From Obrimoposthia wandeli (lineage: Eukaryota): a DNA stretch of 64,000 nt. The notes under the pieces were generated by a model. That model was not told the DNA's origin. It saw only the letters and a program-made list of their open reading frames with translations, and did not search any database. Positions 8,586-63,052 of the stretch are shown piece by piece (the stretch's first letter is position 1; each line of letters starts with the position of its first letter). The stretch spans positions 62,001-126,000 of the forward strand of contig CDROCS010000186.1 of the NCBI GenBank assembly GCA_977020255.1. The letters are read 5' to 3'. Both the position numbers and the translations under genes were made by a program.

Positions 8586-11500
8586 TTAAGTTAAATTAAA
8601 ATTACCATAAGCAAGGGTTTTATTCTTACTAACCCATCTCATTTTATCGTCAAAACATTTTAAAGCAACTTTAGAGCTAAATGTTGTATGATGCTGATGG
8701 TTAATCGATGCTATACGTTACTGGTTAACACTCATAATTTCTTCATTTTCATAACAGTCTTGGTGTCTTAAATTAGTTTGTTTTAAAGAAATACCCTTAG
8801 CCCTTAATTTATTTTGATGTTAATAACATTTTGGTTTTAAGAAAACCCACTCATTATAATCAGTACCCTTTCGTCTTTAAATTTTCCAATTACAGCTTTA
8901 AAGTTTTCTGAATACAAGGGATGTGTTTTTAGGATAATTACTCGTATCTAAATATTCGTCCTTAATCATTTCTTTGAGTAATTTATCTTTATTAATATTC
9001 ACACAGTCAAGGAAAAAAGAATCTGTGTCCATAGCTACAATTCAAATACTATAATTAAAAGTTTGCCTATACCGTTCAAGCTCAACATATTGTAATTGAT
9101 ACATTCGTAATTTATATAGATCAAGTACAGCTTGACCGATATAGGATGCCGATCTAAACATATTTCCTATTTCTGCATAAAAACTAAATTTAAATAATCA
9201 TTTATTTGAGTATGACGTTTAAACCAAGGACTCAAACTAATTTTTCAAACCGTTTATCGTTATTACATAATCTGATATCAAGCCGATTCTTAAGATTCTC
9301 AACCGTTTTACCGTAAACGGAATTATTTTTTTAATTTAAAAAACTATTATTCAAACCTATTAACACCAGTTGCATGCTTGTTTGAATTCAAATCTATATA
9401 TTGTTTGAAAACGGGTGCTTGTGTAAACCGAATAGCCCTCTGAATCTTTAAGATTTCAGCACCAAGAAAAACATAGAATTGTAGTAAACGGAAATGTATT
9501 ACATAATGTTCTTTATCATTATGTGTTAAAAGTAATTTAGGAGTTTTTGAGTTTGGTGGACACATCTTATGTGGTCCAATAGGTAAGTCATCAACTTTAT
9601 CATGTATACGATCCGGAATATGTAAATCTTCTTCAACAAGAAAACCCCATACGGTTTTACTTAAATCCCTTTCACTTCCAATTAAATTCAAAATTATCAT
9701 GCACCCATTTAAATTCCATATGTGGTAAAGGTTGACTTAAAGCCCATCCGTATAAGTTATTCACATCTATATAGAGAAGTGATGTACTATCATCGGACTT
9801 ACAATAATGTGTATTGACAAAAGTCATACTTCCTCTAATACCTGCTTCAAAAAGATTAAACATTTCTAGATCATGAAGCAATTATACTTTATGTTTTAAT
9901 GATTTTATTGCACTACACCAACTAAGACCGGGAATACTAAAGAAATTAAGAGCCTCAAGATTATCATCAGATCTAACTTTCTGTCTAAAAGCCTCAAATA
10001 CATCACAAAGTAAGTATACATCAAGACGCATATATTCCATCATATAGTCTTTTATTTAAGTGCAACCTATTTTTGTCCACATTGTATGAGCTAAATTATA
10101 TTTATCATCTGTAATGCTATTAGGAAATTTGCATTTTGGAGGCAATCTATCTTCATACAACTTAGATTCACTGGAAATATATTCATAAGGGAAAACGCCT
10201 TTACTAGATATAAAATCAGTACTAAAATATCTTGAGATTTACGGTGAACTTGGAAGATAACTAACCAATCTTTCAAGACTAGTTGTAAAAAGATATGAAT
10301 CTAAAATTTCAATGTTCCAGTTGATAATTCTATTTTGAGAGCCATGCATTTTTCACTAGATTTGGGTATGATTGAATAACCTTTCCCTTTGCAAATTTTA
10401 AAATATGATGAATATCATAACCCATTAAGTTGTGAAAAAGTACTGGTAACATAGTTCTTTTACCGAATCTATGAGATAACTTACATTTATTAAACGCTGC
10501 ACCCAAGAATAAACCTGAAATATGATCATGATCACGTACTAAATCTCTAGTGATTTAATAACAAAGGTAACATATGCGACTCTTTTGAAAAGCTACCTGA
10601 TTTTCATTTACATTATAAGTGGTGCATGCATATTATTTCTCCAAAAAGGTGCAACAATTTCATTAAGAATTTCCGTTAATTTATCAATAAAGTATGTAAC
10701 ACAATCTAAACCGAAATACGAAAAGTATTCTATTGTGTTAGTAACATTTTTTTTAAACAACATTCCAACTGCAATGGGAGTATGTATATTAGGCCGGGTC
10801 GAAATTTTATATTTGAATTACACATTATGCCTTGAGTTCCCTTTGGGTTCCTGAACAACATACTAAAATTACATTGCCATGCGACCCACCCTACCCATCG
10901 CATACGACCCCATCATTTTTGTTAAATCGTATATATTGTATATGTTTGACAGTCACATCAGGTTCTAAAATACTTTCAAAATCAGCGTAAACTACAAAAG
11001 GAGGTTGAACTGACTTTGACCAATCTGTGAATTCCCAATATTTATTATCCGGCTTAGTGAATAAAGTTAGTGTATCAGTATTAAAATTACAATGGGTTCT
11101 ATGTTTATCATAAGCTGCCACAGTTCGAAAACCAAAAAGACATTTCTGACACCAGTAAAGGCGTAAACCATAGCTATGACAATTAAATAATACCACAATA
11201 ATGATAAGTGTTAAGGTCTTCTAACGAAAGTAAATTAACAATTTGATTACATTCCCGTAGTTTTGTTCGGTAAATTATACTAACTGCAGGACTTTTCAAT
11301 ACAATTATTTAACTTGTCTGTTCTAATAACAATAAAATCATCATCGAAAACTGCAGTCTTACAACTAATAGGCCATGTTTTAAATTAGTTTTCTATGTTT
11401 ACAAATTGAGCTTCAATACCAAATTGGATTTTGCAAGGCCCAAATGCATTAATTTTTTCATATCATTATTAATAACCAGTTTTAGCATATTTTGGTTAGA

Positions 11501-11665
11501 TGTAGTATCAAAAATAAGATTACCTTGAAGTGCGCCACCTATTTGATTATCATTTGTTATTGCTTCAAGGCCTACAGTTGCTACAAATTCATTATATAAT
11601 TTATAAAAAAAAATCATTATATAATTCATAAAAAAGTTGTTTTTCATGTGTATAAAGTAAATCAT
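8586..11665 (-). pseudogene. Protein-primed DNA polymerase B of the Maverick (copy A), fragmented
   Basis: Motifs: PFVVYADFES (ExoI), LNFFSIPGLSW, GIRGSMTF, LYIDVNNLYGWALSQ (motif A), VAMDTDSFF (motif C) and C-terminal FDDKMRWVSKNKTLAYG ending at the stop 8586-8588. ORF-track pieces are 10891-11196, 9672-9881 and 9347-9700. The N-terminal boundary is uncertain. Confidence 0.9.
10790..10936. mobile_element. 147-bp insertion with 7-bp target-site duplication inside pPolB A
   Basis: TGTATAT flanks it at 10783-10789 and 10937-10943. Removing the insert plus one copy restores the frame DVTVKHIHTPIAVG, matching HQIHLPIAAG in pPolB B. No TIR seen. Confidence 0.7.
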
Positions 11666-11974
11666 TAAAATCTAGAGATTCATTTCAATACTTATCTAAT
11701 TCATCATCATCATCATTTAAAAATGTAGCGAAATCAAAATTAGGTGAAAATGTTGGACTATCAACTATTTGGAAATCAAAACTATCAACTGGTATTATAT
11801 TATTAATTGTTTCTAGTTTTATAACTTCATTACTTCTTGATGATGGTGATGATTTACGTTTATAATTTGATTTCTTGGTATTAAAATAAGAATAAAAATC
11901 TAAATATTCTATGTTTGTGAACAATATATCACACGATGGACATATGGATTCGTTTTTAAACTTTTAATATTTTT

Positions 11975-12456
11975 TCATAACCTCATGACAATTACTAGTA
12001 TAATAGTTATAAAGTTTACATGGTGGGAAACCATTTTAGGAAAAATACTAATTAAAGCGCCATCAAACAGCACATCAGCTAACCTATCATCAAGGTTGAA
12101 TGATGTACCTAATCGATTAAAATATAATTTTCGGGTTCCATATATTGAGTAAATTTTCTCAGCTAAGTCTTTTCTCAGGGCATCTTGTGAAATTTTAATA
12201 ACTTTAAAACAATTAAGTAAACTTGTATTAATATTTATAAAACGATCATTAAAACTAGAATTAACACCAAACATTGTAGGAAAAATGGTGACAAGTGCTG
12301 CGTCATATAAGACATCGCTAACCTTGTCACAAAAATTAAAGAACTTTCCAATTTGTTTAAAATATAATTTGCATGAACCAAACGCAATATAAATTTTTCA
12401 GCAAGGTCTCTAATTAGTTTATCAGGTTCAATTTCTATTTGTTTAATGGAATGCAA
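11975..12456 (-). pseudogene. Maverick accessory ORF(s) with an internally duplicated domain, unknown function
   Basis: Two overlapping ORFs contain alignable segments: RDLAEKFILRLVHANYILNKLESSL..TRLA and KDLAEKIYSIYGTRKLYFNRLGTSF..DRLA. Confidence 0.4.
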
Positions 12457-13601: not shown

Positions 13602-13961
13602 TTATAAAATAAGTCGTTTAAATTCGTAAAATTTATTAAGAAACTTGATGATACAACCATAAAAGACATAATGATCACAATTAGTAGTTAATAGGTTTTG
13701 CATACGAATTTTATTTTTGAATACATGGCGTTTCACTTGAGTTTCCACATGTCTGATGAGTGCTGACGGATAATAAATTCCTAGAGGATCGAATACGTGT
13801 ACACTATCACGTCTCACGAATAGCGAAATACAGTGTTCACCAGGTAAATTACTTGTATGAGTATTTACAGCATATCCGCCAGGCTTTAGAGCCGGTATTT
13901 TATCCATGGGAAACACTCCTTTGAATTTCTGTTCCAATAATTCAATTCTGACAGCATACAA
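13602..13961 (-). CDS. Adenain-like (C5) maturation cysteine protease of the Maverick, 5'-truncated
   Basis: YAVNTHTSNLPGEHC (His), FDPLG (Asp) and RMQNLLTTNCDHY (Gln/Cys) follow the adenovirus/Polinton protease motif order. Confidence 0.85.
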   Translation of the reverse strand: MYAVRIELLEQKFKGVFPMDKIPALKPGGYAVNTHTSNLPGEHCISLFVRRDSVHVFDPLGIYYPSALIRHVETQVKRHVFKNKIRMQNLLTTNCDHYVFYGCIIKFLNKFYEFKRLIL

Positions 13962-14259
13962 TCAATACGAGTATTATTCAAGTGAATTTGTAGATCTTTA
14001 AAGTGTATGGAAAAAGAAATTTGATAGGTACGAATTTATCGGCTTCCACTATGTCAATATAACTGTTTGTTCCATTATGTTTTAAAACTTTAATTTTCAA
14101 ATATAATAGAGAATCATTCAAATCTAAATATTCTGTTTCACTCCATTGAATAATAAACTCAATTGTATTATTATTACTACCGGTAATATTATTAACAAGG
14201 TAAATATTCTCAAAACATCCATTTTCTATAGCAATTTCAGGTAGTGGACGAATAAACAA
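13962..14259 (-). pseudogene. N-terminal ~100 aa of the double-jelly-roll major capsid protein; remainder deleted
   Basis: TIEFII..ETEYLDLNDSLLYLKIKV, then after a frameshift FHTLFKDLQIHLN, matches the start of Maverick major capsid proteins. It abuts the protease directly. Confidence 0.75.
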
Positions 14260-14289
14260 ACATAATGTAGATTTTGCACAAGCAATTTC

Positions 14290-14690
14290 TTACTCAAATA
14301 TGGTTCTTATTTTTCTACGTTTGTTTATACTACCACTACCTTTTTGTACTTCTTTCATTTCAATCTGCGATTGAGATAGTGCTGGTCGTTTTCGACTTTT
14401 CTTTATTGCAGTCATTAGTTGAGTAGCAGCTTTTGTTGCTTCAAGCATCAACTCCGGTACTTCGCTAATTGTATTAGATTTTAGTTGATTCAAAATTGGT
14501 TTATCGTTCATTACTACATTTGTAAGTGTTTTTGCATCAATTTGTCCTAAACGTGATAGTATAGAAAACGCAATTTGCCCCTAAATTTTCATCCAACCTG
14601 AACCATATTGTTTTCCAACAAAGTAAGGTAGTTCACCACCCGTTTGGGTTGTACTATACACATCAAAAAGATACATTATTAACGATTAAC
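14290..14690 (-). pseudogene. Putative Maverick core-like basic protein
   Basis: QTGGELPYFVGKQYGSGW, then a basic tail (KKSRKRP..QKGSGSINKRRKIRTIFE). QxGxG sites of this kind are typical of small Maverick proteins between the capsid genes. Confidence 0.55.
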
Positions 14691-14695
14691 ATTGT

Positions 14696-15768
14696 TTAAT
14701 TTTGTTTATACATAACTTTTCGAAAATGTAGTGTTAAACTAGTTTTTGCGTTATGAGCAAAGTTTATCGGTATTCCACTATCATTACGAATATTTACTTC
14801 AATATTAGAAATATATATTGATATTATAGGAAGATACATTGGTTTAATGATTATAATATTTACGGTTTTTTTAACCAAATTGATTTTAAATTTAGAATTT
14901 ATACCGCACCAACATTTATAGACTATAAAATTAGTATACAGGTACATGTTATTAAACTCACATATTAATTGAGGTATACTTTTACCGTCACCTGTAAATT
15001 ATGTTTTATTAAGACCCAGTACAAATGCCATACGAGTGTTAAATATTATACTTGAAATATTATATTTTAACTTGATTTTGATGAATTTATCTTTTTCAAT
15101 ATAAAACATGCTAAAAATATGACTACATTTAGATATACGTTTTTAACTAATGGAGTCAAATCTGTACTATTGAAATCGTTGTCAAATACAATTTTTGATT
15201 TGATATTTTTATTTTCAATGTGATAATATTCAAATTTTGTTGATACACATTGAGGATGTATGGTCATTTGAGCAGTTAAAATACCGTTATCATCAGATGC
15301 AAAATAACTTCCAGATAATTTTATATAGAATTTCTGTTTATTTACAGATTTTATAACAAGTACATTTTTTATCTACACCTTCACCATATGTACCAAACGC
15401 ACAATAAAAATGAGCAATGTGTTTTGATGATTTTAATTATACTTTTGAAATTTTCTTTACAATACGTTTAACAGGTGCTAACTTTTCACCATAAATTTTC
15501 GATTATGTGATTATTTCCTCATCTTTAAATTCAACACCTACTGACACAGTATCGGTTTTCATAGTGCTATTCGTTTCATTATAATTAATTTCGCCATCCT
15601 ATAAGTAAATTCTGTCAATGCAACTTCCCATACACCTTGAAGTTCTATCGGATTTTCCCAATCAACAATAAAATTTGATGCGATATTTTTAGGTTGAGTG
15701 TTTGGACAACTGTTAGATGGTAATACAATATGGAAATGTTTTACTCTATCTGGTTCGCTTTTATCCAT
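14696..15768 (-). pseudogene. Minor capsid (penton-like) protein, frameshifted
   Basis: N-terminal FHIVLPSNS..NIASNFIVDWENPIELQGVWEVALTEFTY and C-terminal IEVNIRNDSGIPINF..TSLTLHFR. Confidence 0.8.
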
Positions 15769-15774
15769 GTTGGT

Positions 15775-16730
15775 GTTTTATATCCATGCCACTACGTAAT
15801 ATTGTTTATTCTTACCTCGACCTTTAGATTTAATGAATTCTTGTATCCTATATACTTTTGGTTTATCAATAACTTGTAATTCTTGCTCATAAAACTTTCC
15901 CTCTATTGGACTTTTATCCTCATCTATGATGTTATACATAATGGGGTTTGCACGTAAATTGATTTTTGCTATTTCAAATACTTCATCACTCCAATTATTA
16001 TCGAAATATTTAATAAAAGGTGTTGTACTTAGACGTGATATGCGAACAAAATCTTCAACTTTGTATTTAAGTTTCTTTATTATTTTTTATTACGAGAAAA
16101 CCAATCATCAAATGAAATATCTATAGGTTTCTTACCACTTAAACCGCGATGTGGTGGGTGATTATATGAAATTAACAGTTTAACCTTTACCCATTTCTTT
16201 GATCCAATTACAACAAATTGTTTATTTAATTTATCCCTTAATGTTCTATTAAATCGTTCCACCAAGGCCGCTTTAAAGTGTGAAAACACAGAGTAATGAT
16301 TTACTCCTAATTTATCAAAAGTTGCTTTAACATGTTTGTTATAAAACTATTTTCCAGCATCTGTTTGTACATTATCGGGTACAACATCAATCATATTTTT
16401 GATGGCAGCCTCTATATCTTTTCTGGATTTTGATTTTACCAGTTTAGCACGCCCAAATCTAGTAAATACATCAATACATGTTAAAATATATTTGTAACCG
16501 CTAATGTATCGTGTCCATCAAATCCATTTATCGTAACTTATTAGGGCCACTAGTCTTGTACGATCGTGTTGGAAACCTTTTTCGAATTGGTTTGATGAGA
16601 CTGTACTGTACGCTAGTTGATTGCTCAACCATGGTTGAATTTTCTTTTGACTTGACTTTGTGTTTGATGATAATAATCTAAGGCTGCTGTACCCAACTCG
16701 GTCTTCGGGATCGTACCATCTCGTACCATT
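15775..16730 (-). pseudogene. Retroviral-like (rve) integrase with C-terminal chromodomain
   Basis: YILTCIDVFTRF, VQTDAG, KAALVERFNRTLRDKL, YNHPPHR, WSDEVFEI and KSKGRGKNKQYYVVAW in shifting frames. Confidence 0.85.
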
Positions 16731-16769
16731 ACAACAATTTATTTTAAATCAAAATTAGGTAAGTTGTAG

Positions 16770-19703: not shown

Positions 19704-19738
19704 TTCTTTTAGCGAGTTTCTCACCTAGGCTGCGACAA

Positions 19739-44789: not shown

Positions 44790-47700
44790 ATTTTCCCCAC
44801 CTTGATCCAACTAGATCTAAACAACAACAAAAAACATTCTTTCATTAACACCTGAAGACTTATTCAGATAGATGGCCTAAACTTACCACTTTAAACTCCC
44901 TGCTCTCCGCTTAATCTACACAAACGTACAATCGATTTTGTCACTATCTTGTCTTCACATAACAGCTTCACCACTCTTCCTTTGTAGATCTCCAAGACCT
45001 TTCCTAGCGGCTATTTTCCTCTTTCAGTCGTCTTTTCTAGGATCATAACAATATCATTAACCTTAAGATTCTCTTTCTCTTCCAGCCATTTCTGTCTATC
45101 TGCCCACATAGGGACTACTTCTTCCATCCATCTTTTCCACAATCTTTCCACGATATCTTGCATCAATCTCTATCTAGCTCTCCAACCTTTTGCGTTGCCG
45201 AGTAGGACGTTATTTGCCACTCCATCTAATCTTAAAAAATCATTAGGCGTCGAAGCCCTAAGATCCTCTCCATTTCCGCTAACGTAACTCAACGGTCTAT
45301 TATTCATCAGGTTCTCCACTTCAAACAATATGGTGTTGAATTCTTCATCTGACATTTCGGCATTTTCCGTCACCTTCCTCATCGCTCGCTTTACGGATTT
45401 TATCATAGCCTCGAACACTCCACCAAAGTGTGGGCTATTTGGTGGATTGAATATCCATCTTATCTCTTCCTTAAGTAATTTTCTCTTCAGCGCATATCTG
45501 TCTATCTTTACATCTTCAACCTCTCTCGCGGCACCTCTGAAATTAGTGCCGTTGTCAGATATCATAACTTCCGGTCTACCTTTACGTCCCATAAACCTTT
45601 TTAGAGCTCTGATGAATCCATCCGTGTCCAATCCGTACGTCATCTCGAGATGTACTGCTCTTGTTTGTAAACAGGTAAATAAACATATATACAGTTTTTC
45701 TCTTACTTGCCTCCTTCCTTGCTTAGTCAAGAAAGAACAGGCGAAATCTACTCCCACTCTCGCCAAAACTCCGAGTGGCTCCTCAAACCTTACATTGGAG
45801 CCGTCATTTGCTGCATGCTTTGAGCCTTAGCTTTTTTACATATTATACATTCGGTTTCGACTTTTCTTATTAATTGTCGTGCTTTTATTATCCAGAAATT
45901 CTTCTGTAGCTGTTTCAATAAATGTTGAACTCCAGCATAATGATAATTTCTATCATGTAGGTTTCTAACGATTAACTTTGCCAGCCATCAATTATTATCG
46001 GAAACTTCTGATCGTAGCTTAAGTACTCTGCATTTACTAATCTAGAACTCGATCTTAATACACCTCGTTCATCCAAAAACGGGTTTAATTTTAATATCGT
46101 ACTACATCATAGAGTCTCTTTCTTGTTCACTAGATCCTTTTTTTTTTCATAAAACATCTATTTTGATGATCAATGATCAATTTTTCCATTGCATTCTTTA
46201 ATTCTTCTACCGTTAATTCTCCATAAACCCATGATTTCTTCTTCTCTTGACAGTTTCTGATAAATCGATCCATCCAAGCTCTCACCTTTCTTAGTTTCAT
46301 TAAATTCGAGTATCTTTCGATTTCTAATCTCTCTTGTTTTACTTGGTTGACAAACAACATAATTTTCAATTCTGCATCTTCCTTCTTCTCAAACTTCTTA
46401 TCTATTGGCCACCTTGTAGGTTCAGACTTTAAATACTCTGGTCCTTCTCACCACTTAATTGTAGACGCACATTCATTTGCACTCATTCCTCGTGATAACA
46501 TATCGGCTGGATTTTCCTTCGTTGGCACATATCTCCATTGACGAATATCTGTCTCTTCCTGTATTTTTCACACTATATTTGCGACGAATGGCTTATATTG
46601 TCTCCATCGCTGTTTGATCCACCATAATACATCTTCGCTAACCGTCCAAAATTGTATAACTTTAACATTTTCATTCCATGATATCGCTACTTCTTTAGCC
46701 AATTTTACTCCTTCAACTGCCGCCATTAATTCTAATCTTGGTACACTAACTGTTTTCAATGGTGCGACTTTCGCTTTTGCATCAATTAATTTTACTTCTA
46801 CCTTTTCAGCTTCCTTTGTCCTTACATATGCAACTGCACCAAAAGCTTTTATGGATGCATCTACAAAAACATGAATTTCCATTTCCTTATTCTTTGCTAT
46901 TTTTATCCATCTAGTTATTTTAACTTTCCGCAACTCTTCACATTGCATAAGCCAATCCATAACTTCTTTTTTCAAATCTCCTCCTATTTCTTGGTCCCAT
47001 TATATTCCTTCGAACCATATCTTATGCATTAGCATCTTTGCTCTTATAGGACAAATCCTAATGGATTGAAAACAGTTGATAAAATACTAAGAAACTGCTT
47101 CTTGGTTACTTCAGATCCGTATTTTTTCTCACTTTGAAAAGTAAAGTAGTCTTCACTTGAATTCCATCGTATACCCAACGTCTTTACTTGTCATATTCCA
47201 ACTTCAATCTGAAGAATTTTTGCTTGATCTGCTGTGGGGATTAACTGATTCACTTTTTCACTACTAGTGATCCATTTCCGCTTCCATCTTTGCCCCTCGC
47301 CATATTTCTTTTAATTCCTCAATGGTCTTGGTTACTTTTTCTTCTGTATCCACCGAACACAACGTGTCATCCAAATATGTATTTTCCAAGATTAGCATTG
47401 CACTAGATGGATATTTTGTCAGAAATCTTTCTGCATTTTCTCTAGTCACCATTTGTGCTAAGAAAGGTAAGGAAATTAATCCAAATACCACTCGTTGTAT
47501 TCAAATGTGGTTATTTCTCCTTTATCGTTACTCCATAAAAGTCTTAACCATTTACGGTCAGCCTTGTCCACTTTCACCTGCAAATACATTTCAGTAATGT
47601 CACAGACTAAAGCTATTTGACTCTTACGAAATTTCAACAGAATCTCCATCAAATCTCCCTGCAACTTAGGACCACAGTTTATGTAATCATTAAGACTCTC

Positions 47701-50349: not shown

Positions 50350-50636
50350 AATCCGTCGACATTCTCTAATAACTTATGTCTGCTAATGTTAAAAATATTG
50401 TTATTTATCCCCAAAAAACACTGTTGATCAAAGTAGGGGTTACGGATGAAAAATATAAATTCAAGGATATATTTTAATTAAATTTATGGGTTAGAAAGGG
50501 TGGTGGTACCACTTAGGCGCCACCATTTCCCAAAAATTTATTTAATAGAAGAGGTGGTGATCCTTTGATCAAATGGGCGTCACCAGTTCCCGACGGAAAA
50601 GCAAAAAATGTAAATTAATGTACTATTCTCACTTAC

Positions 50637-51010
50637 CACATTTTCAGCTTGTTCACGATCACGCAGGTATAGTTGTAACTCCAAGCATTGGTCCAGCTGC
50701 TTTTCACGGTTCAACAGGCATCATTTAACTGTTCTCTAACATCAGCGATGCCCTGCAACTTCTCTTTGATTTCGCCTTCTGCATAGTGACCAGTTTTCAG
50801 CAATTCGTTACCGAAATCTTCAAAATTGTGAAATGTTCCAGACCTAGCTTCGATTTCAGCTTGATGCTCCCTATGTCTCTCGTGTAAAGCTTCAGCGCCA
50901 GTGACGTATTTTGCAAGTTTATCTGAGTTCACGAGACCCGTCATTGTATTTATTCATGACATTAGATCACTATAGTCGGCCAAAAACTTCTGCAAATCAA
51001 TGGAATTAGT
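50637..51010 (-). pseudogene. Isolated alpha-spectrin repeat fragment with premature stops
   Basis: DLQKFLADYSDLMS*INTMTGLVNSDKLAKYVTGAEALHERHREHQAEIEARSGTF..GHYA..KQLDQCLELQLYLRD.EQAEN follows non-erythroid alpha-spectrin. Two Trp positions are TGA. Confidence 0.85.
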
Positions 51011-51053
51011 AGATAGATGTGTCCAGTTCCGGTCACCTCCCCCCCTAGCGAAA

Positions 51054-51058
<5 letters not shown>

Positions 51059-51093
<35 letters not shown>

Positions 51094-51930
51094 TGGGTGG
51101 AAATTTTAAATACATACTATAATACTTAATTTTTCTAAGGTCAATGTGAAAAGTAGGTCAAATTTTGTTATAGTACACATGATTTTTGAGGGTTAAATTC
51201 ATATTTATGTCACTTTATACTATAATACGTCTGTTTTTAGCGGATTTTACTCTAAAATTAGATGTTTTTGTTTAAATACATCAATTTTTATGCCCGCAAA
51301 TTTCAAAACATACTATAATACCTCATTTTTCTAAGGTCAATGTGAAAAGTAGCTCGCATTTTGTTATAATACACATGATTTTGAGGGTTAAATTCATATT
51401 TATATCACTTTTTACTATAATACGTCTGTTTTTTAGGTGACTTTTTCTCTGAATGTATAAGTTTTTGTTTAAACACATCAATTTCTATGCCCACAAACTT
51501 AAAAACATACTATAACACGTATATTTTTCAAGATAATTATTAATGAAGGTCACATTTTGTTATAGTACACATGATTTTGAGGGTTAAATTCATATTTATA
51601 TCACTTTATACTATAATACGTCTGTTTTTTAGGTGATTTTACTCTGAATGTATATATTTTTGTTTAAACACATCAATTTGTATGCGTGCAAATTTAAAAC
51701 ATACTATAACACGTATATTTTTTCAAGATAATTATTAATGAAGGTCACATTTTGTTATAGTACACATGATTTTGAGGCTTAAATTCATAAGTAGATCATT
51801 ATGTGTTGTATTACGTCTGTTTTACTCTAAATGTATATCTTTTTGTTTAAACACATCAATTTTTATCCACGAAAATTTAAAAACATACTATAATAAGACT
51901 ATTTTCAAGATCATTATCAGATGTGTTACT
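51059..51930. repeat. (TA)13 microsatellite followed by a ~196-bp tandem repeat (~4 copies)
   Basis: TA run at 51059-51084. TTTTGTTATAGTACACATGATTTT recurs at about 51163, 51359, 51555 and 51750. Confidence 0.9.
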
Positions 51931-52111
51931 TTTGAATCACATCACCCTATCCCTCCATATTTCACACAAAGTGAGATGTATTCTTATGTTAGAAATATTT
52001 TATTAATATCAAAAAGACAAATCAAAATATGTAATAATATAGACATAAATCAACAGATGAAGAATATAATAAAAATATGATACAAATACGATAAAAATAT
52101 ACAATAAATAA

Positions 52112-55100
52112 TCATTCATTCATAATATACTCATCCGGATGAAGATAATGACCATATGCAACTGACCGATTCTTTTCAACCCATTTTCGCTTATCATCCG
52201 CACTACACAATGCTATTTTAGATAAATGCATAGTATATAGCTGATGATTAACGGAAGTTATAAGACTTTGTTGAACACGCTCACATATACCTGTCTCATA
52301 AACAGCTAAGTAATTCTCGTGTTTTAAATTACTCTGTTTAAGATTAATACCCTTTGCTCTCATATGTGATTCATCATTGATAGTTTTTAGGCTATAACAT
52401 TTTGGACGAAGAAATATACATTCCGTATAAGTACAAATACCCTTACTTTCATCTGTAAACTTTCCTATCGCAGTGTTAGCTGTTGAATAAAGAGGGTGAT
52501 TTTTAGGATACTTAGATGTATCTAATAATCCTTCAGAAACCATTGCTGGTAGCAATTGTGCTTCTACATCCACATTTCTACATTTCAAGAAGAAACTGTC
52601 AGTATCCCCAGCAACAATTCTAATATCACAACTAAATTCCTGACGATATTTCTCAAGTTGCACGTACTGGAGCTCATACATTCGCAATTTGCTAAGATCT
52701 AGTACTGCCTGCCCTATATAACTAGGCCTATCCAAACAAATCATGTCTTTATTCAGTAAAACAGCTATTAGATCAGAATCTATTTCTATAGTGCGTTGAA
52801 ATTGCGCCTTACTACAATAAGTAACTAGTTTTTGAGACGTATTACAAATCCTTAAATTAATTCGCTTTTTCAAATTCTCAATCAATTTTCCGAATAGCGA
52901 ATTAACTTTCAGCTTATAATAATCTCGTTCAAAATCATTAGTAGCAGCAGCCCTTTTTGTTGAATTGTCTTCTATATACTTTGCAAAAACATTGGTTTGT
53001 GCAAACCGAATTGCTCTATGCAGGAAATCTATTTTAGCCCCAAGCCTCAGATACATTTGAAGCAAACGAGAATGGACAATGTAATGCTTCTTTGGATAAG
53101 GAGTTAAAAGTAATTTAGAAGTACGACTTCCAGGCGGGCAATCCTTACGTGGAGCTAAGGGAAGATCGTCAAGTTTATCATGCAATTCATTCGGAATACT
53201 TATATCTACTTCCATTAAATGAGCATAATCACTACAGCTTAGTCTTTATATGAGAGCTCATGAATTATTACTTCTAATTCCAATCGGTCAGTTACCCAGG
53301 TAAAATCTCCAACCGGTAAAAATTGGGACATAGCCCATCCATAAAGATTGTTAACATCAATATACAAAATAGTATCACCATCAGAGTTAGTAATCTTATG
53401 TTCGTTCACAAAGGTCATTCCTCCACGAATACCTTCTTCAAACAGTCGATGCATCTCAGGATCTTGAATCAATTCCACAGTAGATCCACCTGGAACCCTC
53501 GGTCTTTCTGCGCTTGACTCAGTACCCAGTAATGACTTGAAAGCGCTTGCAAATGTTAAACCTATGTAAAATTAAATAATGAAAAATAATAATAATATCT
53601 AACCTGGGATAGAGAAGAAATTGAGTGGTTCCAATCCATCATCAGCGATAGCCTTCTCTCGAAATGTTGTAAACACATCCGCAAGTAGATATACATCCAT
53701 TTTGAGATATACCAACATATAGTCCCAAAGATATTCACACCCACTCTCGTGCCAAACTTTCTCCGCCAACTCATATTGTTCACTTTTGATCTTCCTATCC
53801 CATTTTGATGGAAGGCTTGTTATTGATCGGAGAGCACTCTCTGATACCGCCATATCGTATGGAAATATCCCTTTACCATTCACAAGATGAGGTTGAAAAA
53901 CAGAATGTGTCAATGGAATGGAAACTAAGTTTTCCACGAGTTTTTCAAGACTACTATTCAAAAACTGCAATGAATCGATGAATCGAATACAAACTCCTCC
54001 AATACGCACTATCATTACTTGGAATTTTTCTGTTGATTGAGGTATAACAGAGACATTCCAGTCAGAAAAGTTGCTCAGCGCATGTTTGAGAATGTGATGG
54101 AGATCATACCCTCTCAGGTTATGAAACACCACTGGGAGAGTACGATTCACTCGTCTAGATAAATTGCACTTACTGTGAGCAGCTCCAAGGTACTTACCCA
54201 TCATATGATCATGGTCTCGTACCTTTTTAATGCATGTCTTATTACAGAGGTAACAACTAGTAGCTGATTTAAAACTAGCTATTTGCTCAGGCGTAAGTGT
54301 TTGCATAACTTCCGCTGCATGTCTCTTATACCAAGGCAAAACAACTGTCTTTACCAGCATTTCCAGCTTGGAAAGAAAATCAACAACACAAGTTTCACCA
54401 GTGAAAAGCAAGTAATATTGAGTGTATCCTGTTGCAGCAATTGGAGACATTAACATACCGGCTGCAATCGGGAGATGAATTTGATGATGAATGCCATGGG
54501 GTGGGAGAACTGATTCAAAATCCCCGTAAACAACAAATGGTGGAGAAATCGTTTTTGAAAAATCTGTGAATGAATATATTTGTCCTCCGGCATCTGGTAT
54601 AGTGTATTATGTTCCATATTCATCATACAAAGTGGTTTATGCTTCTCAAAACTTATTGCCCGTCTAAATCCATGAAGACACCATATACATCGAATTCGTG
54701 TAGAACCTTCTTCTTTGTTATAATAGATTAGAAGCCTACTAAGATTTGGAACTGCAACGTAGTGATATTTCTCTCCTTCTTCTAACAGAATCAGATTAAC
54801 TGGATTGCCGCCAGGATTGGTGGTTCGATATAATATATCAATAAAAGGATTCTTAAAAATATCCTGATCCGGAGAAGGAATGATATTGATGTGATTGTAA
54901 GTGAATACATTTATTGATAAGGATGAATTCTCTCTTTCGAAACGAGGAATATCATCTAATCTCATAGGCATATCGTTTAAAGAGTATATCAAATCTCCTA
55001 AATATGCATCATATTGTGAGACTCTATACCTATGCTGAGATATAATATCGTACTTCAGAATAGAAAGGATGCTATAGATAAAACACAAAACACCTGTATT

Positions 55101-56005
55101 CTGAACATTCACAACCGAATTGTGAAGTTCATTTGGCGTAGAAATATATGCTTTTCCTTGAAGATAATTAATTTCCGTGGTCTTAATGATAATAAAATTT
55201 ATCTCCAGGATGCGTTTGAGTTGCCAATTACTGGCATTCTGAGAATACTTTTCAATCTTAGCATTGAGAGACTCTATACCCCGACCAACGAATTCAGGTG
55301 AAAAGAAAGTAGCCTTGTTTGAAACATTCCATTGTTTCACACCACTCTCATTCTCGAACTCCACCTGGAGACCGAATTGCACCTTACAAGATGCGAATTC
55401 TTCAACTTTTACTCTTAAAGAGTCAATAAAGTGCTGCGGCACATCTAATTCAATAACATTATCGCTAGTCAAATTCAACGATAATGTCACATAAGACCCT
55501 CTTAGTCCTTTCTTTTCTCTAACAATCCCTAATCTCACACTCTTAGCCGCAGATGCACCACTAGTTGATGGCATCGCGCTTGTCGACGGGGGCATAATCC
55601 GTTTTTGTGCAGGTATTGTACTAGTTGAAGGCATAGCTGGAGGAGAAATCGGCACAGGAGTAGATATACGATCAGGATTGAATGACATTGAGACTTTATC
55701 AGCTTCGGAAGTTGATTTAACATTTTGTATTCCCTTTTGATTGAAAACTATATTCTTCTTTCCTTTAGCTCCAAAATATCCTAGATGTGATTGATGTATG
55801 GAAACAAAAGCTCCCCATTCTTCTTCAGCCGCTTCACATTGAGGACATATATAGAAAATACGTCCATAGAACTTTGTTCCAAAATACTGCTGCATCTTGG
55901 TTTGGCAAATCAAATGGTATTGATTAAAGCAAAGATTTTTGTTAATATTGCACTAAAATTATAATTAGTGAAGTAATATAAAAATAAATTACTTACATTA
56001 GTCAT
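52112..56005 (-). pseudogene. Near-complete protein-primed DNA polymerase B (copy B) with N-terminal zinc finger, endonuclease VII-like module, two predicted short introns and two frameshifts
   Basis: Motifs: VYGDFES, CYLC..VRDHDH..CNL, VFHNLRGYD, YLKMDVYLL, LYIDVNNLYG, KLKVNSLFGK and VAGDTDS. Predicted ATG at 56005 and introns at 55953-55996 and 53562-53603. Frameshifts at ~54575 and ~53230. Stop at 52112-52114. Confidence 0.92.
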
Positions 56006-56283
56006 TTTGTAATCAATTAAACACTAATAATTCTTTTGTTTATAGACGTTGTTACATTTATAGTAATTTATTGTTTATATTTCAAGTTCTTTGTTAAAAA
56101 TAACACAGTAAAACAAACATAAATTTACTATGTAACTTTTTTAAATAATAATTTTATTCCATTTTACTTATAGTAACAACAACAAAAAGTTTTATAAGCA
56201 CAATTTTTCCCATGCTCAATATATGAACAACTAATAATTGATGGGATCTGTGAAAGCCCTTTCAATGTTTTACAGAAAATTCA

Positions 56284-56660
56284 CAAGTTTCTAATTTGTT
56301 TGAAAGAACAAGGAGAGTTGGTGAACACATCTATATTAGGACATGCATGTATGTGAATATGTGCATGTTCTGATTTTGTTGATGCAATTATATGTAAGTT
56401 TCTAATTTGTTTGAAAGAACAAGTAGAGTTGGTGAACACATCTATATTAGGACATGCATGTATGTGAATATGTGCATGTTCTGATTTTGTTGATGCAATC
56501 ATATGTAAGTTTCGTATTGGATGACAAGAACAAGGAGAGTTGGTGAACACGTCTATATTAGGACATGCATGTATGTGAATATGTGCATGTTCTGATTTTG
56601 TTGATGCAATTATATGCAAGTTTCGTATTGGATGACAAGAACAAGGAGAGTTGGTGCATG
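56284..56660. repeat. 111-bp tandem repeat, ~3.4 copies
   Basis: Unit starts recur at 56284, 56395, 56506 and 56617. Confidence 0.92.
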
Positions 56661-57399
56661 TATATATTTGGACATAAATGTATGTAAAGATATATGTGTG
56701 TGTGTTCTAATTGTGCTAGTATTTGAAAACATATGCATGTTAAGAACAGTTTACATCAAGAATCGATATATCAGTATATGTGAGAATAACGTATAGTACT
56801 AATTATTCTCATGTAATTGCATAACTATTAATCTCATATCCTAATACTTATTAAAATCAATGAAAATACTTATCAGTGACAAGTCATGAATGAGAACTTG
56901 TAAATATATTGAAATCCTTTCATTCTACTGAATTCATGAATCATAAATCGACTCAATTATATCAAATCCATGATAATTAATCAAATACATCAAATATCTG
57001 TATATTCATTGTAAAACACACATACAGTTAATCAATAAATACATGTAAATATGTTAAACCCCTAGTAAAACACAACAAATATCCGATAAGACAAATACAG
57101 TAAAAATCTATGTTAATTAATAAATAAATCATATACAAAATATCCTATAAATACATTAAAATACTCTAAATCAATATCAAATCAATATTAATATATAAAA
57201 TGTATCAATAAATCATATTAAAAATATCATATAAAGTCATTAAATTTCTATTAAAAAAAATATATATATATATATTTCATGCACAAAACGTTTTTGGTGA
57301 AAATTATGTACAAGTGATTTAAAAACTTTTTAATTTTGGCGTCAAAAAATTTTAAAAATTTAAACAAAAGTTTTTTGAAAAATTAATTTTTAAACTTTT

Positions 57400-57665
57400 T
57401 GGAAAAAATAAATTTTTGAAGGTTTTGAACCCTTGAAGGTGTACCCTCGAAGGTCTAATCAAAGTCAGATCAACGCTATTATATATAACTTTGAAAAGTA
57501 GAAAAATAAAAATTTTGAAGGGTTTGAACCCTTAAAGGTCAAGCCTCGAAGGTCCAGCCAAGTTCTGGTCAAGCCTATTATATATAACTTTGAAAAGTAT
57601 AAAAATACATTTTTTGAAGGTTTTAACCCTTAAAGGTCAGACCCTTGAGGATTAACCTTCGAAGA
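57400..57665. repeat. 99-bp tandem repeat, ~2.6 copies (after a (TA)7 at 57261-57274)
   Basis: GAAGG(T/G)TTT(G)AACCCTT recurs at 57418, 57517 and 57616. Confidence 0.85.
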
Positions 57666-60449
57666 TTCATCTGCAAAGTTCAATGGGCTATCCTTTAGTT
57701 AAGACCGCATGTCAATACGACCTTTAGATAAAAAGTTATTAAAGTTTGAAAGGATGTTACTAAGAATAGAAGGAAAAATAACATGTTTAGAGGTTTTAAC
57801 CTAATTTTAACCTAACCCTATCTCTATTTACTTGTTTAACTCATAGGTTTAAAAATGTGTAATAAATAGCTTAAGATTACAAAAAACGTTTTCTACTCAC
57901 AAATAAAAGTAGAATCAATTATACAAAATAAGTCATCACTTCTCACTACTTCTACAAGTTGTTCTTTATTTATGACTTGTTTAAAGTTTTTTACTTCTAG
58001 TAGTGCTGGGTGATTTTTGATTTTATCGTTTAGTCCATATAGAAACTGATGTAGTAGTAAGCATTCTCTTAAAGATTATATAAAATCATAATTGATTATC
58101 TGATCATGATATTGACGTAGTATAAGTTTCTTGAGAAAATAACCAATTTGGTTCACTTTATTTTCTTAAAGCTCTTAAATATACAGTAATTCTTCTATTT
58201 ATTATTACTTCACACTTAACCTCAATGGTGATTTAATTGAAGTATTTAATGACTGTGTACAACTTGATGAATAGAAAAAAAATATATGAAAAACTTGAAT
58301 ATGACTTACTATATCGAAATAATAGTAAAATATTGATAATTTAAGTACAACTTTCAATAATCACCATATGTCTTTCAAGGTTTTATATAGAACTTTAAAG
58401 CTTACGATAACTGTTATAATATTGATGAATTATATCAATATTATTACTTTGGTATCAGTTTCTTAAGAAAATTATCAATTACATGTGATATAAAATCATC
58501 TTTCAATACCTGTTATGATTGTAAATTTGATATAAGATTCTTTGACATGAGGTATTTTCATCAGGTTTGTGCATAATATTGATACAATACATACATTATT
58601 GATCATTTCGGTATAACTATCTTTGCAAATAATCAATAATATATGAGGTTATGTAAAGATTTCGTCATGCAATACATGTTATTATCGTGATGATTTGTAT
58701 GCAGTCCTTTTAGAGTTGCTTGAGGAGAAAATAACCCATCTCGCTTCTAAATTTTTCTTAATATTCCGTCATACATCACAATATCTGATTAATTCCTCAA
58801 CTTTTTTAGGGTATATTTTCTCTTCTAAAATCTCCTAAATACTTCGTAATATCTTCTTCTACTTTGCATTGCTTCATGAAATGCTACATTATAAATATCA
58901 TATCAATGATGATTCAAGGCTGGCTGATGAAATGAATGTAGATAAGATGCTTGAATATTGACTTTGGAAGTAGTCTTTGGATATTAGTTAAATCTATATA
59001 ATTTCGGTATAACTTTCTTTGAGATCTTGGGTTAAGACTATTTATGATCACGAAGCATCTTCCAGATATTTCTCTGTTATGTTTGAAGTAATTGATTGAA
59101 TCCATGAATTTGAAACGATGGATGAAATTGATAAGTAATGGATAGATATGTCTCTGTAACTATTTGATTCATTCTCACTAATACTCTTAGAAATTTTCAA
59201 TATTTTTCCTTTTGAAACATATATAAATAGTAATTAATCATTTATATTCTTGAATATTGCATACGTTTTAATTACTATCTCTTCTCATATATAACAATCC
59301 GGGTATAATTTCTTCATATATCACAAGTCCAACTTTTAGAACATAATTATAAATTTTCCTATAATTCTTAATAACTTTCCTTCCCATAAACCTCTATTAT
59401 CAACCCTAATTTTTTAAAATATTAAGCAAGAGGTTGATTATATATGTCAAACAAACCAGGTATAATTCATAATTTCCTCACATATATCAATTCTTTACCA
59501 CTATTCTTCATTATTGCATCTAAATTTCAATAAAATACTTCAAACATTATCTTTAAAAAAATAGCATACCTAGCTTTGATTTTAATTGAAGGAATGTAGA
59601 AGGAATAGATAAAATGCTTAAATATTGGCTTTGGAACGATAATATTGATGACTTCGATAAAACTCTCTTTGAAAATAACTTATTTACTATGTATTAATGA
59701 AATCGTTAATTTTCATTCAATGTCTTAATATTAATTGATAAAAGTATTTTTTAATGTCTAATGAAGATAGAATCCATTTATATGAACCAAAACTATTAAT
59801 AGTAATCATAAAGATTTCACCCGATTTTTTATAAAAATATGATGACTTTATCAATACTCAGAAGTTGTTTCTTTAAGTTTTCCTTAATACCTATTGACTT
59901 ATAAGTAGCTATTTACAACATCATTGATTATTTTCAACTATAAAATCAATAATTGAGAATATGCACACTAATCGTTATTACTCAATATCTAACCTAAACC
60001 TCTAACTTCTAATACTCTAATTCTAATATTCTAATTCTAACACTAACATCATTTTCCAAAATATATGCGAAAAATTTACAAGAAGATGGTAAAAGTTTGA
60101 ATAATATCTCTGCTTTTGTAAAAATTGTCTTCGTTATGACCGAAATATGAGTAAAATACATATATTATGATTAATTTTTGGTATAACTCGCTTTGAAGCA
60201 GTATAAAGCTGAAATTCAATATGATCGCTTATATCATAATCTTAAATGAAATGACCGGAATTTTGATAAAATACGATTTCACTACAGTTTTAGAACAGTA
60301 GTCTTATTTCCCTTCTAAACCACCTAAATATCTGCTAACTCACATTAAATTTCCTTTCAAAGTCAAATATATCCTATATTTTTTCTTCTGAATCCTACTA
60401 ACCTTATATACATCGCTTTTATTTTCATTCAATCTAGCTATCTAGGCTA

Positions 60450-61300
60450 TATTTACCAAAACCTCCTAAACAACCCTGCTAAATCTTTTTTAAACCCTTC
60501 AAAGCTTTAATCTGAACCATCTAAACATCATCGTTAAATTTCTCTCTAAATTCATCTAATTTCTTCTGAAACCTCCTGAACTCCCCGTTAAATTTCCCTC
60601 TAAATTCATCTAATTTCTTCTTCTGAAACCTCTTGAACTCCATGTTAAATCTCCCTCTAAATTCCTTTAATTTCTTTTGAAACCTCCCCATATAAATTCT
60701 CCTCTGAACCAATTTAAGTTATATTTCCTCTTCTGAAACCTCTTGAAATATCCGTTAAATCCTCCTTTTATCTCCTTTAAGGTAATATTTTCTCTTCAGA
60801 AATCTCTTGAACTCCTCAGTTAAATTCTCTTTGGAACCCTTTAATTTCCCCTATGAACCAATTTTAATTTCTTTTTTCTGAAACTTCCTAAATACTCCTT
60901 TTAAATACTTCTCTAAACGCCTTTTAAGGCTATATTTTCTGATACTTCCTAAACATTCCTGCTAAATCTTTTCTAAACCCTTCAAATCTATAATATATCT
61001 TCTGAAACCTCTTGAACACTTTTTCAATTTGTCTTTTATAACCATTCTATGCATTAATATTTCTTCTATAACCTTCTAAATACCTCGTAAATTTCCTCTT
61101 CTATGTAATAAACTTCCTAAATCTCTTAAATAAATCACATCAATTTCACTTCATAATCCAATCTAGGCTATATTTTTGATACCTCCTAAAAGTATCGTTA
61201 ATTTCTCCTCTGAACTGCTACTTATCTTTAATCTTCTATGTATTAATTACTCTTCTAGAGAACCTTTTGAACAAATCGTGAGTTTCTCTTCTAAAACTCT
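60450..61300 (-). repeat. Degenerate nested repeats that could encode a K/E/F/R-rich coiled-coil
   Basis: Recurrent TTCTGAAACCTCTTGAAC and TAAATTCCTCT motifs. ORF 60521-60712 reads RFQKKLDEFRGKFNGEFRRFQKKLDEFREKFN. Confidence 0.5.
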
Positions 61301-62585
61301 ATCCATTATTTTCTATTCTTAAACCTTATAAACACCCATGTCATATCTCATCTAAATGTAACAAATCTCATGCATCTTCTTTATTTATCTTATAGAACCT
61401 TTTATGTATAATTTCTTTACTAGACCGATTTATTTGAAGTAATAAATCGACTGGTCGTTTCCAATAAGTTTCCATAATATTGATAACATCAATGAATCAA
61501 TAAGCTTGTAGAGTTTTGCAAGAATTTTCTTGTTTGATATATCGATCAATGAAAAATTATTTTTTGAGAATATAGTTATCAATAGACTCAAGTAATATGA
61601 ATAAATTATGACTGAGATAAATACATACTCTAAACATTATTGAATAAATTATATCAATAAATGATACTTGAAAATAATTTTAGGTTTAAATGAATCGAAA
61701 GAGAGAATATAATTTAATCCCTTTCTAGTCCTGATGTAATAATTTCTAAACAAAATGTTCCAATATAGTATTGATAATTTAATTAATTATTTATTACATA
61801 GATTAATTTCCTTAAATAAGCTAATCTTCAAACAATATTCTTTGAAACTAATCATTTTTTAGTAACAAAACTTTTACAGATTCTTTTACAAAAAAACTTT
61901 TAGTAGAGAACATTTTAGATTTAATGTATCATTTTGAAATTTAATAAAATTCTTAGTTAAAGATGCAGATTAATAATATACTCTTGATCGTAAATTGACT
62001 AATTGATCAAAGTAATCTCTCTAATTATCCGTATAATTGTCCGTAATAAACTCTCACATATTATTATTTTTTTTTCTCTTCAAATTATATCTTTATTACA
62101 CGAAGAAATCCTTTAAATATGTTGAAGAGAAATCCAATTAGTGCATCTACCATATAAGAAACCATGAAAACTTTATTGACGCGCTGGCACATAAGAATCG
62201 TCAGTAAATACAACTTATTTGTTCTGAAAGTAATTTTGTCCTTAAACTAAAATCAAAGAAAATTTATAGAAATATGGGTAAATTCATTGAAAAATGATCA
62301 ATTATTTGCATTATAATTTGCATTATTCTAAAAATCCTTGGTAAATGTATCTTCTAATCTAAAAATAGACTGAAAATCGAACTTTCTAATTCGAAATTTA
62401 CATTATTCAGAAAAATTACACAGTAAATTCTTTTGTCAACTAAAATCCTTATAAATGATTTAAGATTCAACTTTGCATCTTAATTTACCTTATTCTGAAA
62501 TATACACGATAAAATGTATTCTAAAATCCATAAATATAAACATAAAATGATTAAAAATCGAACTTTTTATATCCAAATTAGAATT

Positions 62586-63052
62586 TTTTTCTAAAGTGTC
62601 ATAATGTAGACGTGCAAGCTACACTGTTGTCTGCAATGATTTCAGATGGATTATTAGACACATCAAAATTTTCTATAAACCATCCTTTAGCCAATACTGC
62701 GATATGCAAGTTTAAGGACGAGAGTAAGCAATGTAGATATAAGCAATGGGTATTTTTACGCTCCAAATCATATAGCTTAGAAACTATAGACGGAAAGTTC
62801 CAGATGAGAGCAAAGGGAATTAGTGTTAAGCAGACTGTGCTACGCCATGCGAATTATTTAGCTGCATATGAGAGTGGGGTTAGTGAACGAGTGCAACAAC
62901 AACGCATTAGTTCAATTAATCACCAGCTCTATACCGTAAATATGAGTAAGATCGCATTGAGTAGCAATGACGATGAGAAAAAATGGGTAGAGAAAAACCG
63001 GTCAGTTGTCTACGGACATCATAGATATCCAGATGATTTTTCACTTGAATAA
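62586..63052 (+). pseudogene. 5'-truncated C-terminal fragment of pPolB (copy C), closest to copy B
   Basis: FFLKCHNVDVQATLL..GLLDTSK..KFKDESK..RAKGISVKQ..INHQLYT..KWVEKNRSVVYGH is collinear with 52112-52600. Confidence 0.9.

What the first reader, a model, noticed from the sequence alone, without database searches (positions are those of the whole stretch)
51018..57700. Stand-alone pPolB unit framed by tandem arrays and TA tracts: candidate polymerase-only element or virus segment
Seen: a ~3.9-kb pPolB is the only recognisable gene between (TA)13 at 51059 and (TA)7 at 57261. It has a 196-bp array downstream and 111-bp and 99-bp arrays upstream. No integrase, capsid, protease or ATPase was recognised nearby. 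The inner edges of the two TA tracts show weak inverted similarity (T8-9..GAAATTT). Copy C is also followed by hairpins and an array. Established: Mavericks carry pPolB with capsid and integrase genes, whereas bidna-like segmented viruses and linear plasmids have pPolB-dominated replicons. Inference: a distinct capsid-less self-synthesising element or an endogenised segment.
Basis: partly seen in the sequence, partly recalled or inferred. Interest (0 to 1): 0.7.

Follow-up and report, generated by a model that had tools for sequence, protein, structure and literature searches.

The report
Intron-bearing Maverick polymerase end fragment
This is most likely the broken-off polymerase end of a Maverick (Polinton), a known virus-like jumping element of animals, and is ordinary except that its polymerase gene seems to carry short introns and a self-contained 6-kb element cannot be fully excluded.

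Summary
The pPolB, TA tracts and arrays are real, but the TA tracts are not the ends. The unit starts at 51008 with a Polinton-type end motif (AGTAGA...) that abuts a broken spectrin exon. No long inverted partner exists in the window, and the inner-edge similarity is explained by AT-richness. The gene is a Polinton-type pPolB: terminal protein, OTU with both catalytic residues (bidnavirids lose one), exonuclease, palm. It is young (0 stops in 1,255 codons, two frameshifts). It shares a clade with copy A, which lies beside capsid and integrase remnants. Best reading (0.66): a one-ended Maverick remnant, as reported in C. elegans (PMC11414722). First, two 42-44-nt GT-AG introns sit exactly where homologs demand them. 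Second, a possible right end at 56929 has a 6-bp inverted motif and a 5-bp duplication (13 of 1,547 null sites), which keeps a complete 5.9-kb polymerase-only element alive (about 0.14). A bidna-like segment or linear plasmid is unlikely.

The parts
51003..51007 (+). Left flank GAATT, last bases of a broken alpha-spectrin exon (about 50638-51007); candidate 5-bp target duplication
   Evidence: Spectrin match runs to the junction; same 5 bp at 56930-56934
51008..51057 (+). Left terminus: Polinton-like end motif AGTAGATAGATG, then a GC-rich stretch
   Evidence: Only AGTAGATAG in the window, 0.29 expected; 5 of 6 bases of the (AGT)2 end motif in PMC8097293; terminus inferred
51058..51094 (.). (AT)14 microsatellite plus T9, inside the terminus, not the boundary
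51106..51893 (.). Subterminal tandem array, 196 bp x about 4, units 78-88% alike
51999..52004 (-). AATAAA 109 nt after the stop codon, possible polyadenylation signal
   Evidence: function inferred
52112..56005 (-). Polinton-type protein-primed DNA polymerase gene (zinc fingers, terminal protein, vOTU, exonuclease with endonuclease-VII-like insert, palm); frameshifts near 54570 and 53245; no in-frame stop in 1,255 homologous codons
55176..55532 (-). Terminal-protein-like domain (little-finger fold)
   Evidence: VIA Z 8.8, rmsd 2.2, 91 aligned to 4ir1; the same fold is the best hit of Polinton TPs in PMC11161782
54735..55136 (-). vOTU protease domain with catalytic Cys (55085) and His (54764)
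   Evidence: Many OTU hits, Z 7.0-7.4; Cys in 73 of 75 and His in 74 of 75 aligned rows
55953..55996 (-). Candidate intron 1, 44 nt, GTAAGT..CTAAT..TTTTAG, after a three-codon first exon (56005-55997)
   Evidence: 4 of 35 full-length homologs start with the matching Met-Cys spacing; splicing inferred
53562..53603 (-). Candidate intron 2, 42 nt, GTTAG..CATAG, 88% AT, two in-frame stops
   Evidence: absent from all 114 spanning homologs and from copy A
53488..53529 (-). In-frame 42-nt insertion without stops; no 42-nt GT-AG, so a coding insert or a 36-nt intron
56285..56685 (.). Tandem array, 111 bp x3.6, upstream of the gene
56924..56934 (+). Candidate right end TCTACT followed by GAATT; no inverted similarity beyond about 6 bp; unproven
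57253..57275 (.). A7 plus (AT)8; probably not part of the unit
57404..57645 (.). 99-bp array outside the right TA tract; probably belongs to neighbouring repeat DNA
   Evidence: assignment inferred
8592..12030 (-). Context: copy A, decayed pPolB of the same clade (50% to B; 14 stops in 554 aligned codons)
13605..16748 (-). Context: decayed Maverick module beside copy A: protease-like piece, N-terminal about 95 codons of a double-jelly-roll capsid protein (14011-14295), penton-like pieces, rve integrase
   Evidence: Capsid. Integrase: Pfam rve E=0.001, below the curated cut-off, IS481 E=0.003 in two pieces. Protease and penton labels are recalled from motifs; one search found no PDB match
62582..63052 (+). 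Context: copy C, 3' fragment of B's sister polymerase (65%), followed by hairpins and a 46-bp array

Best explanation
B is the young, one-ended polymerase end of a Polinton/Maverick: left terminus, subterminal 196-bp array, pPolB gene pointing at the terminus, and its upstream array. The integrase, capsid genes and right terminal repeat are missing, most simply lost by deletion or recombination after insertion into a decayed spectrin exon. Shown: domain order, intact catalytic motifs, clade membership, absence of other genes and of an inverted partner. From established Polinton biology: the host transcribes the gene, the OTU releases the terminal protein, which primes end-initiated strand-displacement copying of a linear DNA, and an rve integrase inserts it. 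Inferred: the gene of this family is spliced (two short GT-AG introns), which implies nuclear transcription. This copy is now non-functional or mis-assembled at two frameshifts and cannot move with one end.
For: TP-vOTU-EXO-PALM order with intact OTU pair. Best viral fold match is an adintovirus protein, E 8.8e-21, ahead of bidna-like viruses at 1.6e-9. A, B, C and D share one 30-row clade, SH-aLRT 99, and A adjoins capsid and integrase remnants on the same strand. Copies C and D are plain 3' fragments, so truncation is the norm here. 0 stops in 1,255 codons bounds neutral decay at about 1.6-1.8%, so a terminal-repeat pair would still be visible, yet none is. Spectrin does not resume to the right. 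Precedent: pPolB plus TIR without integrase at 10 C. elegans loci; 96% of vertebrate copies are defective.
Against: TCTACT at 56924-56929 is followed by the same 5 bp that precede 51008: the only such pair among 70, and 13 of 1,547 null sites give one within 5-13 kb, 0 within 5-6.3 kb. No remnant of a neighbouring gene upstream, although the copy is young, while arrays lie on both sides. B is only 50% identical to A, and the A/D+B/C node is unsupported (47), so A does not prove that B's own family had capsids. A's link to its capsid module rests on adjacency, and no ATPase was found. The 70 closest homologs sit on shorter contigs (median 4,855) than the next 50 (8,340; p 0.002), only 8 of 70 at 13-35 kb. 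Intact vertebrate Mavericks have no introns.
Confidence: 0.66

Rival explanations
1. B is a complete 5,922-bp polymerase-only element (51008-56929) with 6-bp inverted end motifs, a 5-bp target duplication and arrays near both ends. It copies itself by protein priming and borrows integrase, perhaps capsids, from resident Mavericks.
For: End motif plus duplication, nominal chance about 0.8%. Symmetric layout with arrays 100 and 240 bp inside the ends. No other gene despite youth. Short homolog contigs. Introns set it apart from A and from 114 homologs.
Against: No inverted similarity beyond about 6 bp (score 12, typical of the 20 TCTACT sites), against 100-1,500-bp repeats in Polintons. The right flank neither continues spectrin nor offers a splice acceptor. 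This was one of two right ends tested. pPolBs are reported as consistently paired with DDE integrases (passages of 10.64898/2026.10.13.758929). Short contigs are also expected if assemblies break at flanking arrays.
Confidence: 0.14
2. B is the left arm of a longer Maverick whose remainder lies beyond 64000, behind nested insertions or an assembly misjoin near the 111-bp array or TA tract.
For: A 13-25-kb element starting at 51008 would end at or past the window edge. Arrays and microsatellites are common misjoin points (general knowledge). Two single frameshifts with no stops resemble read errors.
Against: 56.0-62.6 kb has no frame over 141 codons and no Maverick gene. C and its end belong to a different family (65%, other array).
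Confidence: 0.11
3. B is a host-domesticated polymerase that gained introns while serving the host.
For: Introns, a polyadenylation signal, no in-frame stops.
Against: It keeps a mobile-element terminus, has two frameshifts, sits among nested repeats, and has a fragmentary sister copy. Host introns seen in this window are longer than 150 nt (one gene, read by eye).
Confidence: 0.05
4. One reading: a unit framed by the TA tracts that is an endogenised bidna-like virus segment or linear plasmid.
For: Both tracts have a T-run inward in inverted orientation; 0 of 54 poly-T sites match as well. Bidna-like PolB models appear at ranks 3-5.
Against: Similarity vanishes under composition controls. Outer edges are unrelated. 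The OTU pair is intact, unlike all known bidnavirids. No NS1, capsid or RNA polymerase family found. Spliceosomal introns do not fit cytoplasmic or mitochondrial replicons.
Confidence: 0.03

Closest known systems
Polintons/Mavericks (adintoviruses, eupolintoviruses)
   Same: pPolB with terminal protein, active-type vOTU, exonuclease and palm; AG-type end motif; polymerase next to a terminus; clade member A beside capsid and integrase
   Different: No integrase, capsid, ATPase or protease in this unit; no long terminal repeat pair; two candidate introns, where intact vertebrate elements have none (PMC8097293 passages)
One-ended Polinton-1_CB remnants of C. elegans (PMC11414722 passages)
   Same: pPolB end plus terminal repeat without integrase
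   Different: There the full parent elements are known; here B's parent family is unseen, and no introns are mentioned in the passages read
Introner-bearing eupolintovirus elements of dinoflagellates (PMC12166617 abstract and passages)
   Same: Introns inside polinton-like elements
   Different: There transposon-generated introners, mostly gained after integration, in protists; here two short AT-rich introns with no other copy seen, in an animal
Bidnaviridae and bidnaparvoviruses
   Same: Polinton-derived pPolB with TP and OTU fold; about 6-kb size
   Different: Their OTU is inactivated, ends are matching inverted repeats, and they carry parvovirus-like genes; none of this is seen here
Cytoplasmic linear plasmids and transpovirons
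   Same: Capsid-less, protein-primed, active vOTU
   Different: No long repeats, RNA polymerase, helicase or integrase here; exonuclease retained; spliceosomal introns; integrated in nuclear DNA

Membership tests
Polinton pPolB (gene family) | TP-vOTU-exonuclease-palm domain order | tested here: met
   definition in PMC11161782. Z values of 7-9 are middling alone, but order and repeated OTU hits agree
Polinton pPolB (gene family) | Catalytic Cys and His of vOTU intact | tested here: met
   C290 and H397 inside the OTU-aligned range, 73 and 74 of 75 rows
Polinton/Maverick (whole element) | rve integrase within the element | tested here: not met
   None in 51.0-62.6 kb; hence filed as Polinton-derived, not as a complete Polinton
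Polinton/Maverick (whole element) | Capsid, penton, protease, ATPase genes | tested here: not met
   Capsid profile hits only 14011-14295; A's pieces find nothing near B; no ATPase motif
Polinton/Maverick (whole element) | Terminal inverted repeats of 100-1,500 bp | tested here: not met
   No inverted partner within the window; DNA beyond 64000 unseen
Polinton/Maverick (whole element) | (AGT)2 or (AG)3 end motif | tested here: inconclusive
   AGTAGA, 5 of 6, at a junction where spectrin homology stops; AGTAGA alone occurs 37 times in the window
Polinton/Maverick (whole element) | 5-8-bp target site duplication | tested here: inconclusive
   5-bp match at 56930, no 6-8-bp match at a plausible end
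Alpha versus Beta adintovirus PolB; pPolB1 versus pPolB2 | Placement against reference sequences | not tested
   No named references were among the hits; weak PF03175 scores only hint at the divergent class
Bidnaviridae | Inactivated vOTU | tested here: not met
Bidnaviridae | Matching terminal repeats, parvovirus-like NS1 or capsid | tested here: not met
Bidnaviridae / linear plasmids | Free linear DNA with protein-linked ends | not testable with these tools
   Needs reads or bench work
Transpoviron / Tlr1 | Helicase fused in place of the exonuclease | tested here: not met
   Exonuclease motifs present, no helicase family
Spliceosomal intron | GT-AG ends at positions absent from homologs | tested here: met
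Spliceosomal intron | Removed from the transcript | not testable with these tools
   No RNA data

The most novel reading that the evidence does not exclude
B and C represent a family of about 6-kb, intron-containing, polymerase-only nuclear replicons of animals with ends reduced to a 6-bp inverted motif. They self-replicate by protein priming and hitch-hike on the integrase and capsids of resident Mavericks: a satellite of Polintons, possibly widespread among the roughly 70 unnamed close homologs on 4-7-kb contigs.
Probability: 0.14. Interest if true: 0.75.

Novelty: new variant of a known kind. Interest (0 to 1): 0.35.

Why it matters
If the best reading holds, the locus is an ordinary remnant. 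Its one useful feature is the introns: intact vertebrate Mavericks are reported as intronless, and my searches found introns in polinton-like elements only in protists. A spliced Polinton polymerase would show nuclear, host-dependent expression, give a marker for when this lineage gained introns, and explain why single-ORF screens miss such elements. If the 5.9-kb reading holds, it would be a polymerase-only satellite of Mavericks, a replicon type for which searches found no animal example.

Tried and rejected
TA tracts as termini: rejected, reported as the one test in favour. A terminus at 12750 splitting A into a polymerase segment and a capsid segment: 24 of 101 AGTAG sites resemble B's end as well, and no inverted partner was found, so a bipartite reading is unsupported. 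Upstream exons of C on the plus strand: none among 120 homolog searches. Capsid homolog search by shared words found nothing; the full scan did. PDB sequence search with the protease-like piece: 0 hits. NCBIfam gave only weak IS481 hits. Rfam: 0 matches in 50-64 kb. Relatives in prokaryotic genome contigs: 0 of 91 and 0 of 29 pattern matches confirmed. Host placement: an NDUFS1 exon is only 52-69% identical to the 120 listed hits, so no close named relative. The paper search with 'endonuclease VII' gave 0 papers. Left open: the gene neighbourhoods, names and cluster members of the database homologs, metagenome and viral contigs, language-model look-alikes, the rest of the host genome, and all paper supplements (not read; those of the bioRxiv preprint are closed), which may list intron-bearing or polymerase-only elements.
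Full report
Setting. The window is AT-rich animal DNA: intron-containing NDUFS1 and ubiquitin-conjugating genes, a spectrin exon, and a decayed BEL/Pao retrotransposon at 45-50.4 kb. An NDUFS1 exon has no close named relative (52-69% to 120 listed hits). Four pPolB copies are present: A (8.6-12.0 kb), D (6.4-6.9 kb), B (the finding) and C (62.6-63.05 kb).

Observation. No other gene lies near B. Pfam found nothing in six read-through frames of 55.9-62.6 kb. The longest stop-free frame there is 141 codons, from the 111-bp array. A profile of 33 capsid homologs hits only 14011-14295. The inverted similarity at the inner edges gave mixed tests. Global alignment was negative (49 of 54 poly-T sites score as well at 25 nt). 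Local alignment was positive against poly-T sites (0 of 54). It was negative once composition was controlled (279 of 1,000 shuffles; 147 of 675 AT-rich 40-mers; no extension at 60-200 nt). I treat it as chance. The 99-bp array lies outside the right tract.

The gene. It occupies four open frames on the minus strand with PF03175 in three (E 5e-11, 2e-7, 1.5e-4) and a sub-threshold Endonuclease_7. Exonuclease and palm motifs are intact. A model of the first frame (75-row alignment, mean pLDDT 76.6) shows a little-finger fold at residues 141-259 (Z 8.8, rmsd 2.2, 91 aligned) and an OTU fold at 273-406 (Z 7.0-7.4, many entries). [quoted passage not shown] B keeps both (73 and 74 of 75 rows). The best viral structure match is a Drosophila-associated adintovirus protein (E 8.8e-21), ahead of a MELD PolB and bidna-like viruses. 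There are two frameshifts, near 54570 and 53245, and no stop in 1,255 homologous codons. About 4.4-5% of substitutions would make a stop, so neutral decay is under about 1.8%. A has 14 stops in 554 aligned codons.

Of 120 homologs, 114 align across 53450-53640. All 114 show a gap of 24-30 residues, 98 exactly 28, made of two 14-codon inserts. The first is a 42-nt, 88% AT GT-AG segment with two stops; the second is open and has no 42-nt GT-AG. Copy A has neither. At the 5' end, a 44-nt GT-AG segment with a textbook donor and branch site separates an ATG from the first frame, whose first Cys aligns with residue 5 of two homologs; 4 of 35 full-length homologs begin with that Met-Cys-His-Cys pattern. 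A scan for such segments found 6 sites in 128 kb of both strands, 2 of them these; its criteria were set after I had seen the candidates. The homolog set consists of predicted single frames and is biased against introns. Splicing is inferred, not shown. PMC8097293 (passages) states that intact vertebrate Mavericks have no introns; PMC12166617 (abstract and passages) reports introners in dinoflagellate polinton-like elements. Searches turned up no animal example.

Ends. Spectrin homology stops at 51007, and AGTAGATAGATG begins at 51008, close to the (AGT)2 end motif. No inverted copy exists in the window, though Polintons have 100-1,500-bp repeats and 5-8-bp duplications (PMC10748475, first part and section 8 read) and B is young enough to show them. 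Against simple truncation, TCTACT at 56924-56929 is followed by the 5 bp that precede 51008: 1 of 70 such pairs, null 13 of 1,547. But similarity stops after about 6 bp, and the right flank does not continue spectrin or give an acceptor, which a true duplication would normally require. These two improbabilities roughly cancel, leaving the prior for remnants dominant.

Relatives. A first tree used 106 of 124 rows, dropping those under 400 columns; a second used 72 of the 106. B groups with C (98), A with D (95), and all four lie in one 30-row clade (99); their joint node is unsupported (47). C and D fill only a quarter of the columns. B is 50% identical to A and up to 58% to database proteins. 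Next to A, on the same strand, 13981-14289 matches the N-termini of 82 proteins (best E 1.6e-16). The best one folds (pLDDT 92.1) as a double-jelly-roll capsid protein. An rve integrase is weakly detected; protease and penton labels are recalled from motifs. So this polymerase clade includes a probable capsid-linked Maverick in the same window, by adjacency. Homolog contigs are short (median 4,855 for the top 70, 8 of 70 at 13-35 kb), which fits either small units or assembly breaks at arrays; their neighbours could not be seen.

Mechanism. Shown: a Polinton-type polymerase with priming and processing domains beside one Polinton-like end. Known biology: terminal-protein-primed copying and insertion by an rve integrase. 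Inferred: B entered as part of a Maverick with a spliced polymerase gene and then lost its right part (0.66). PMC11414722 (passages) reports pPolB plus terminal repeat without integrase at 10 C. elegans loci. Rivals: complete 5.9-kb polymerase-only element (0.14), longer or misassembled element (0.11), domesticated gene (0.05), TA-framed bidna segment or plasmid (0.03).

Other papers seen only as passages: PMC8502044 (also section 3.1), PMC6431247, PMC11296320, PMC12220804, 10.64898/2026.10.13.758929. No supplements were read.

Verdict. The gene belongs to the Polinton pPolB family. The unit fails the whole-element tests (integrase, capsid, repeats) and is filed as a Polinton-derived fragment. 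It is a variant of a known kind because of the introns. Interest 0.35.

Noticed in passing
window 45170-50373 (-): Decayed BEL/Pao retrotransposon with a ubiquitin domain (Pfam E 3e-22) at the start of the gag region, apparently in the same coding stretch; long terminal repeats not found.
   Followed up: partly
window 50638-51007 (-): Isolated alpha-spectrin exon with a stop, a frameshift and a splice donor; no other spectrin exon found in the window.
   Followed up: partly
window 17609-18408 (-): BIR and RING pieces (inhibitor-of-apoptosis-like cargo) at the right of the decayed Maverick module.
   Followed up: no
window 13605-14295 (-): The capsid gene's first 95 codons abut a protease-like piece, so most of the capsid gene is deleted; no ATPase remnant found.
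   Followed up: partly
window 11978-12650 (-): Unknown gene with an internal repeat directly upstream of copy A; no Pfam family.
   Followed up: no
window 12635-12800: Back-to-back end-like motifs (TCTACT near 12635, AGTAGATGAT at 12750) with a small GC hairpin and arrays inside A; not above chance.
   Followed up: partly
window 6386-6840 and 62582-63052: Fragments D and C both begin within about 15 codons of the palm DTDS motif, though they belong to different subfamilies.
   Followed up: no
window 10785-10950 (-): About 150-nt insertion with a GC-rich stretch in copy A's exonuclease region.
   Followed up: no
window 18629-19123, 20398-20705, 30930-31173, 35978-36192, 37526-37868: Dispersed repeat pieces in inverted orientation, 79-96% alike.
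   Followed up: no
window 50495-50600: Two similar GGTGGTG..CACCA hairpin-like motifs between the retrotransposon and the spectrin exon, faintly like B's terminal GC stretch.
   Followed up: no
window 36911-37476, 19302-20099, 60444-61400: Further arrays: 42 bp x13.5, 30/47/34-bp arrays, and a degenerate 57-64-bp pyrimidine-skewed repeat.
   Followed up: no
BFVD entry A0A7D4VFN9: The best structural match is a 560-residue adintovirus protein covering only the zinc-finger, terminal-protein and OTU half, about where B's first frame ends; a natural split there was not examined.
   Followed up: no
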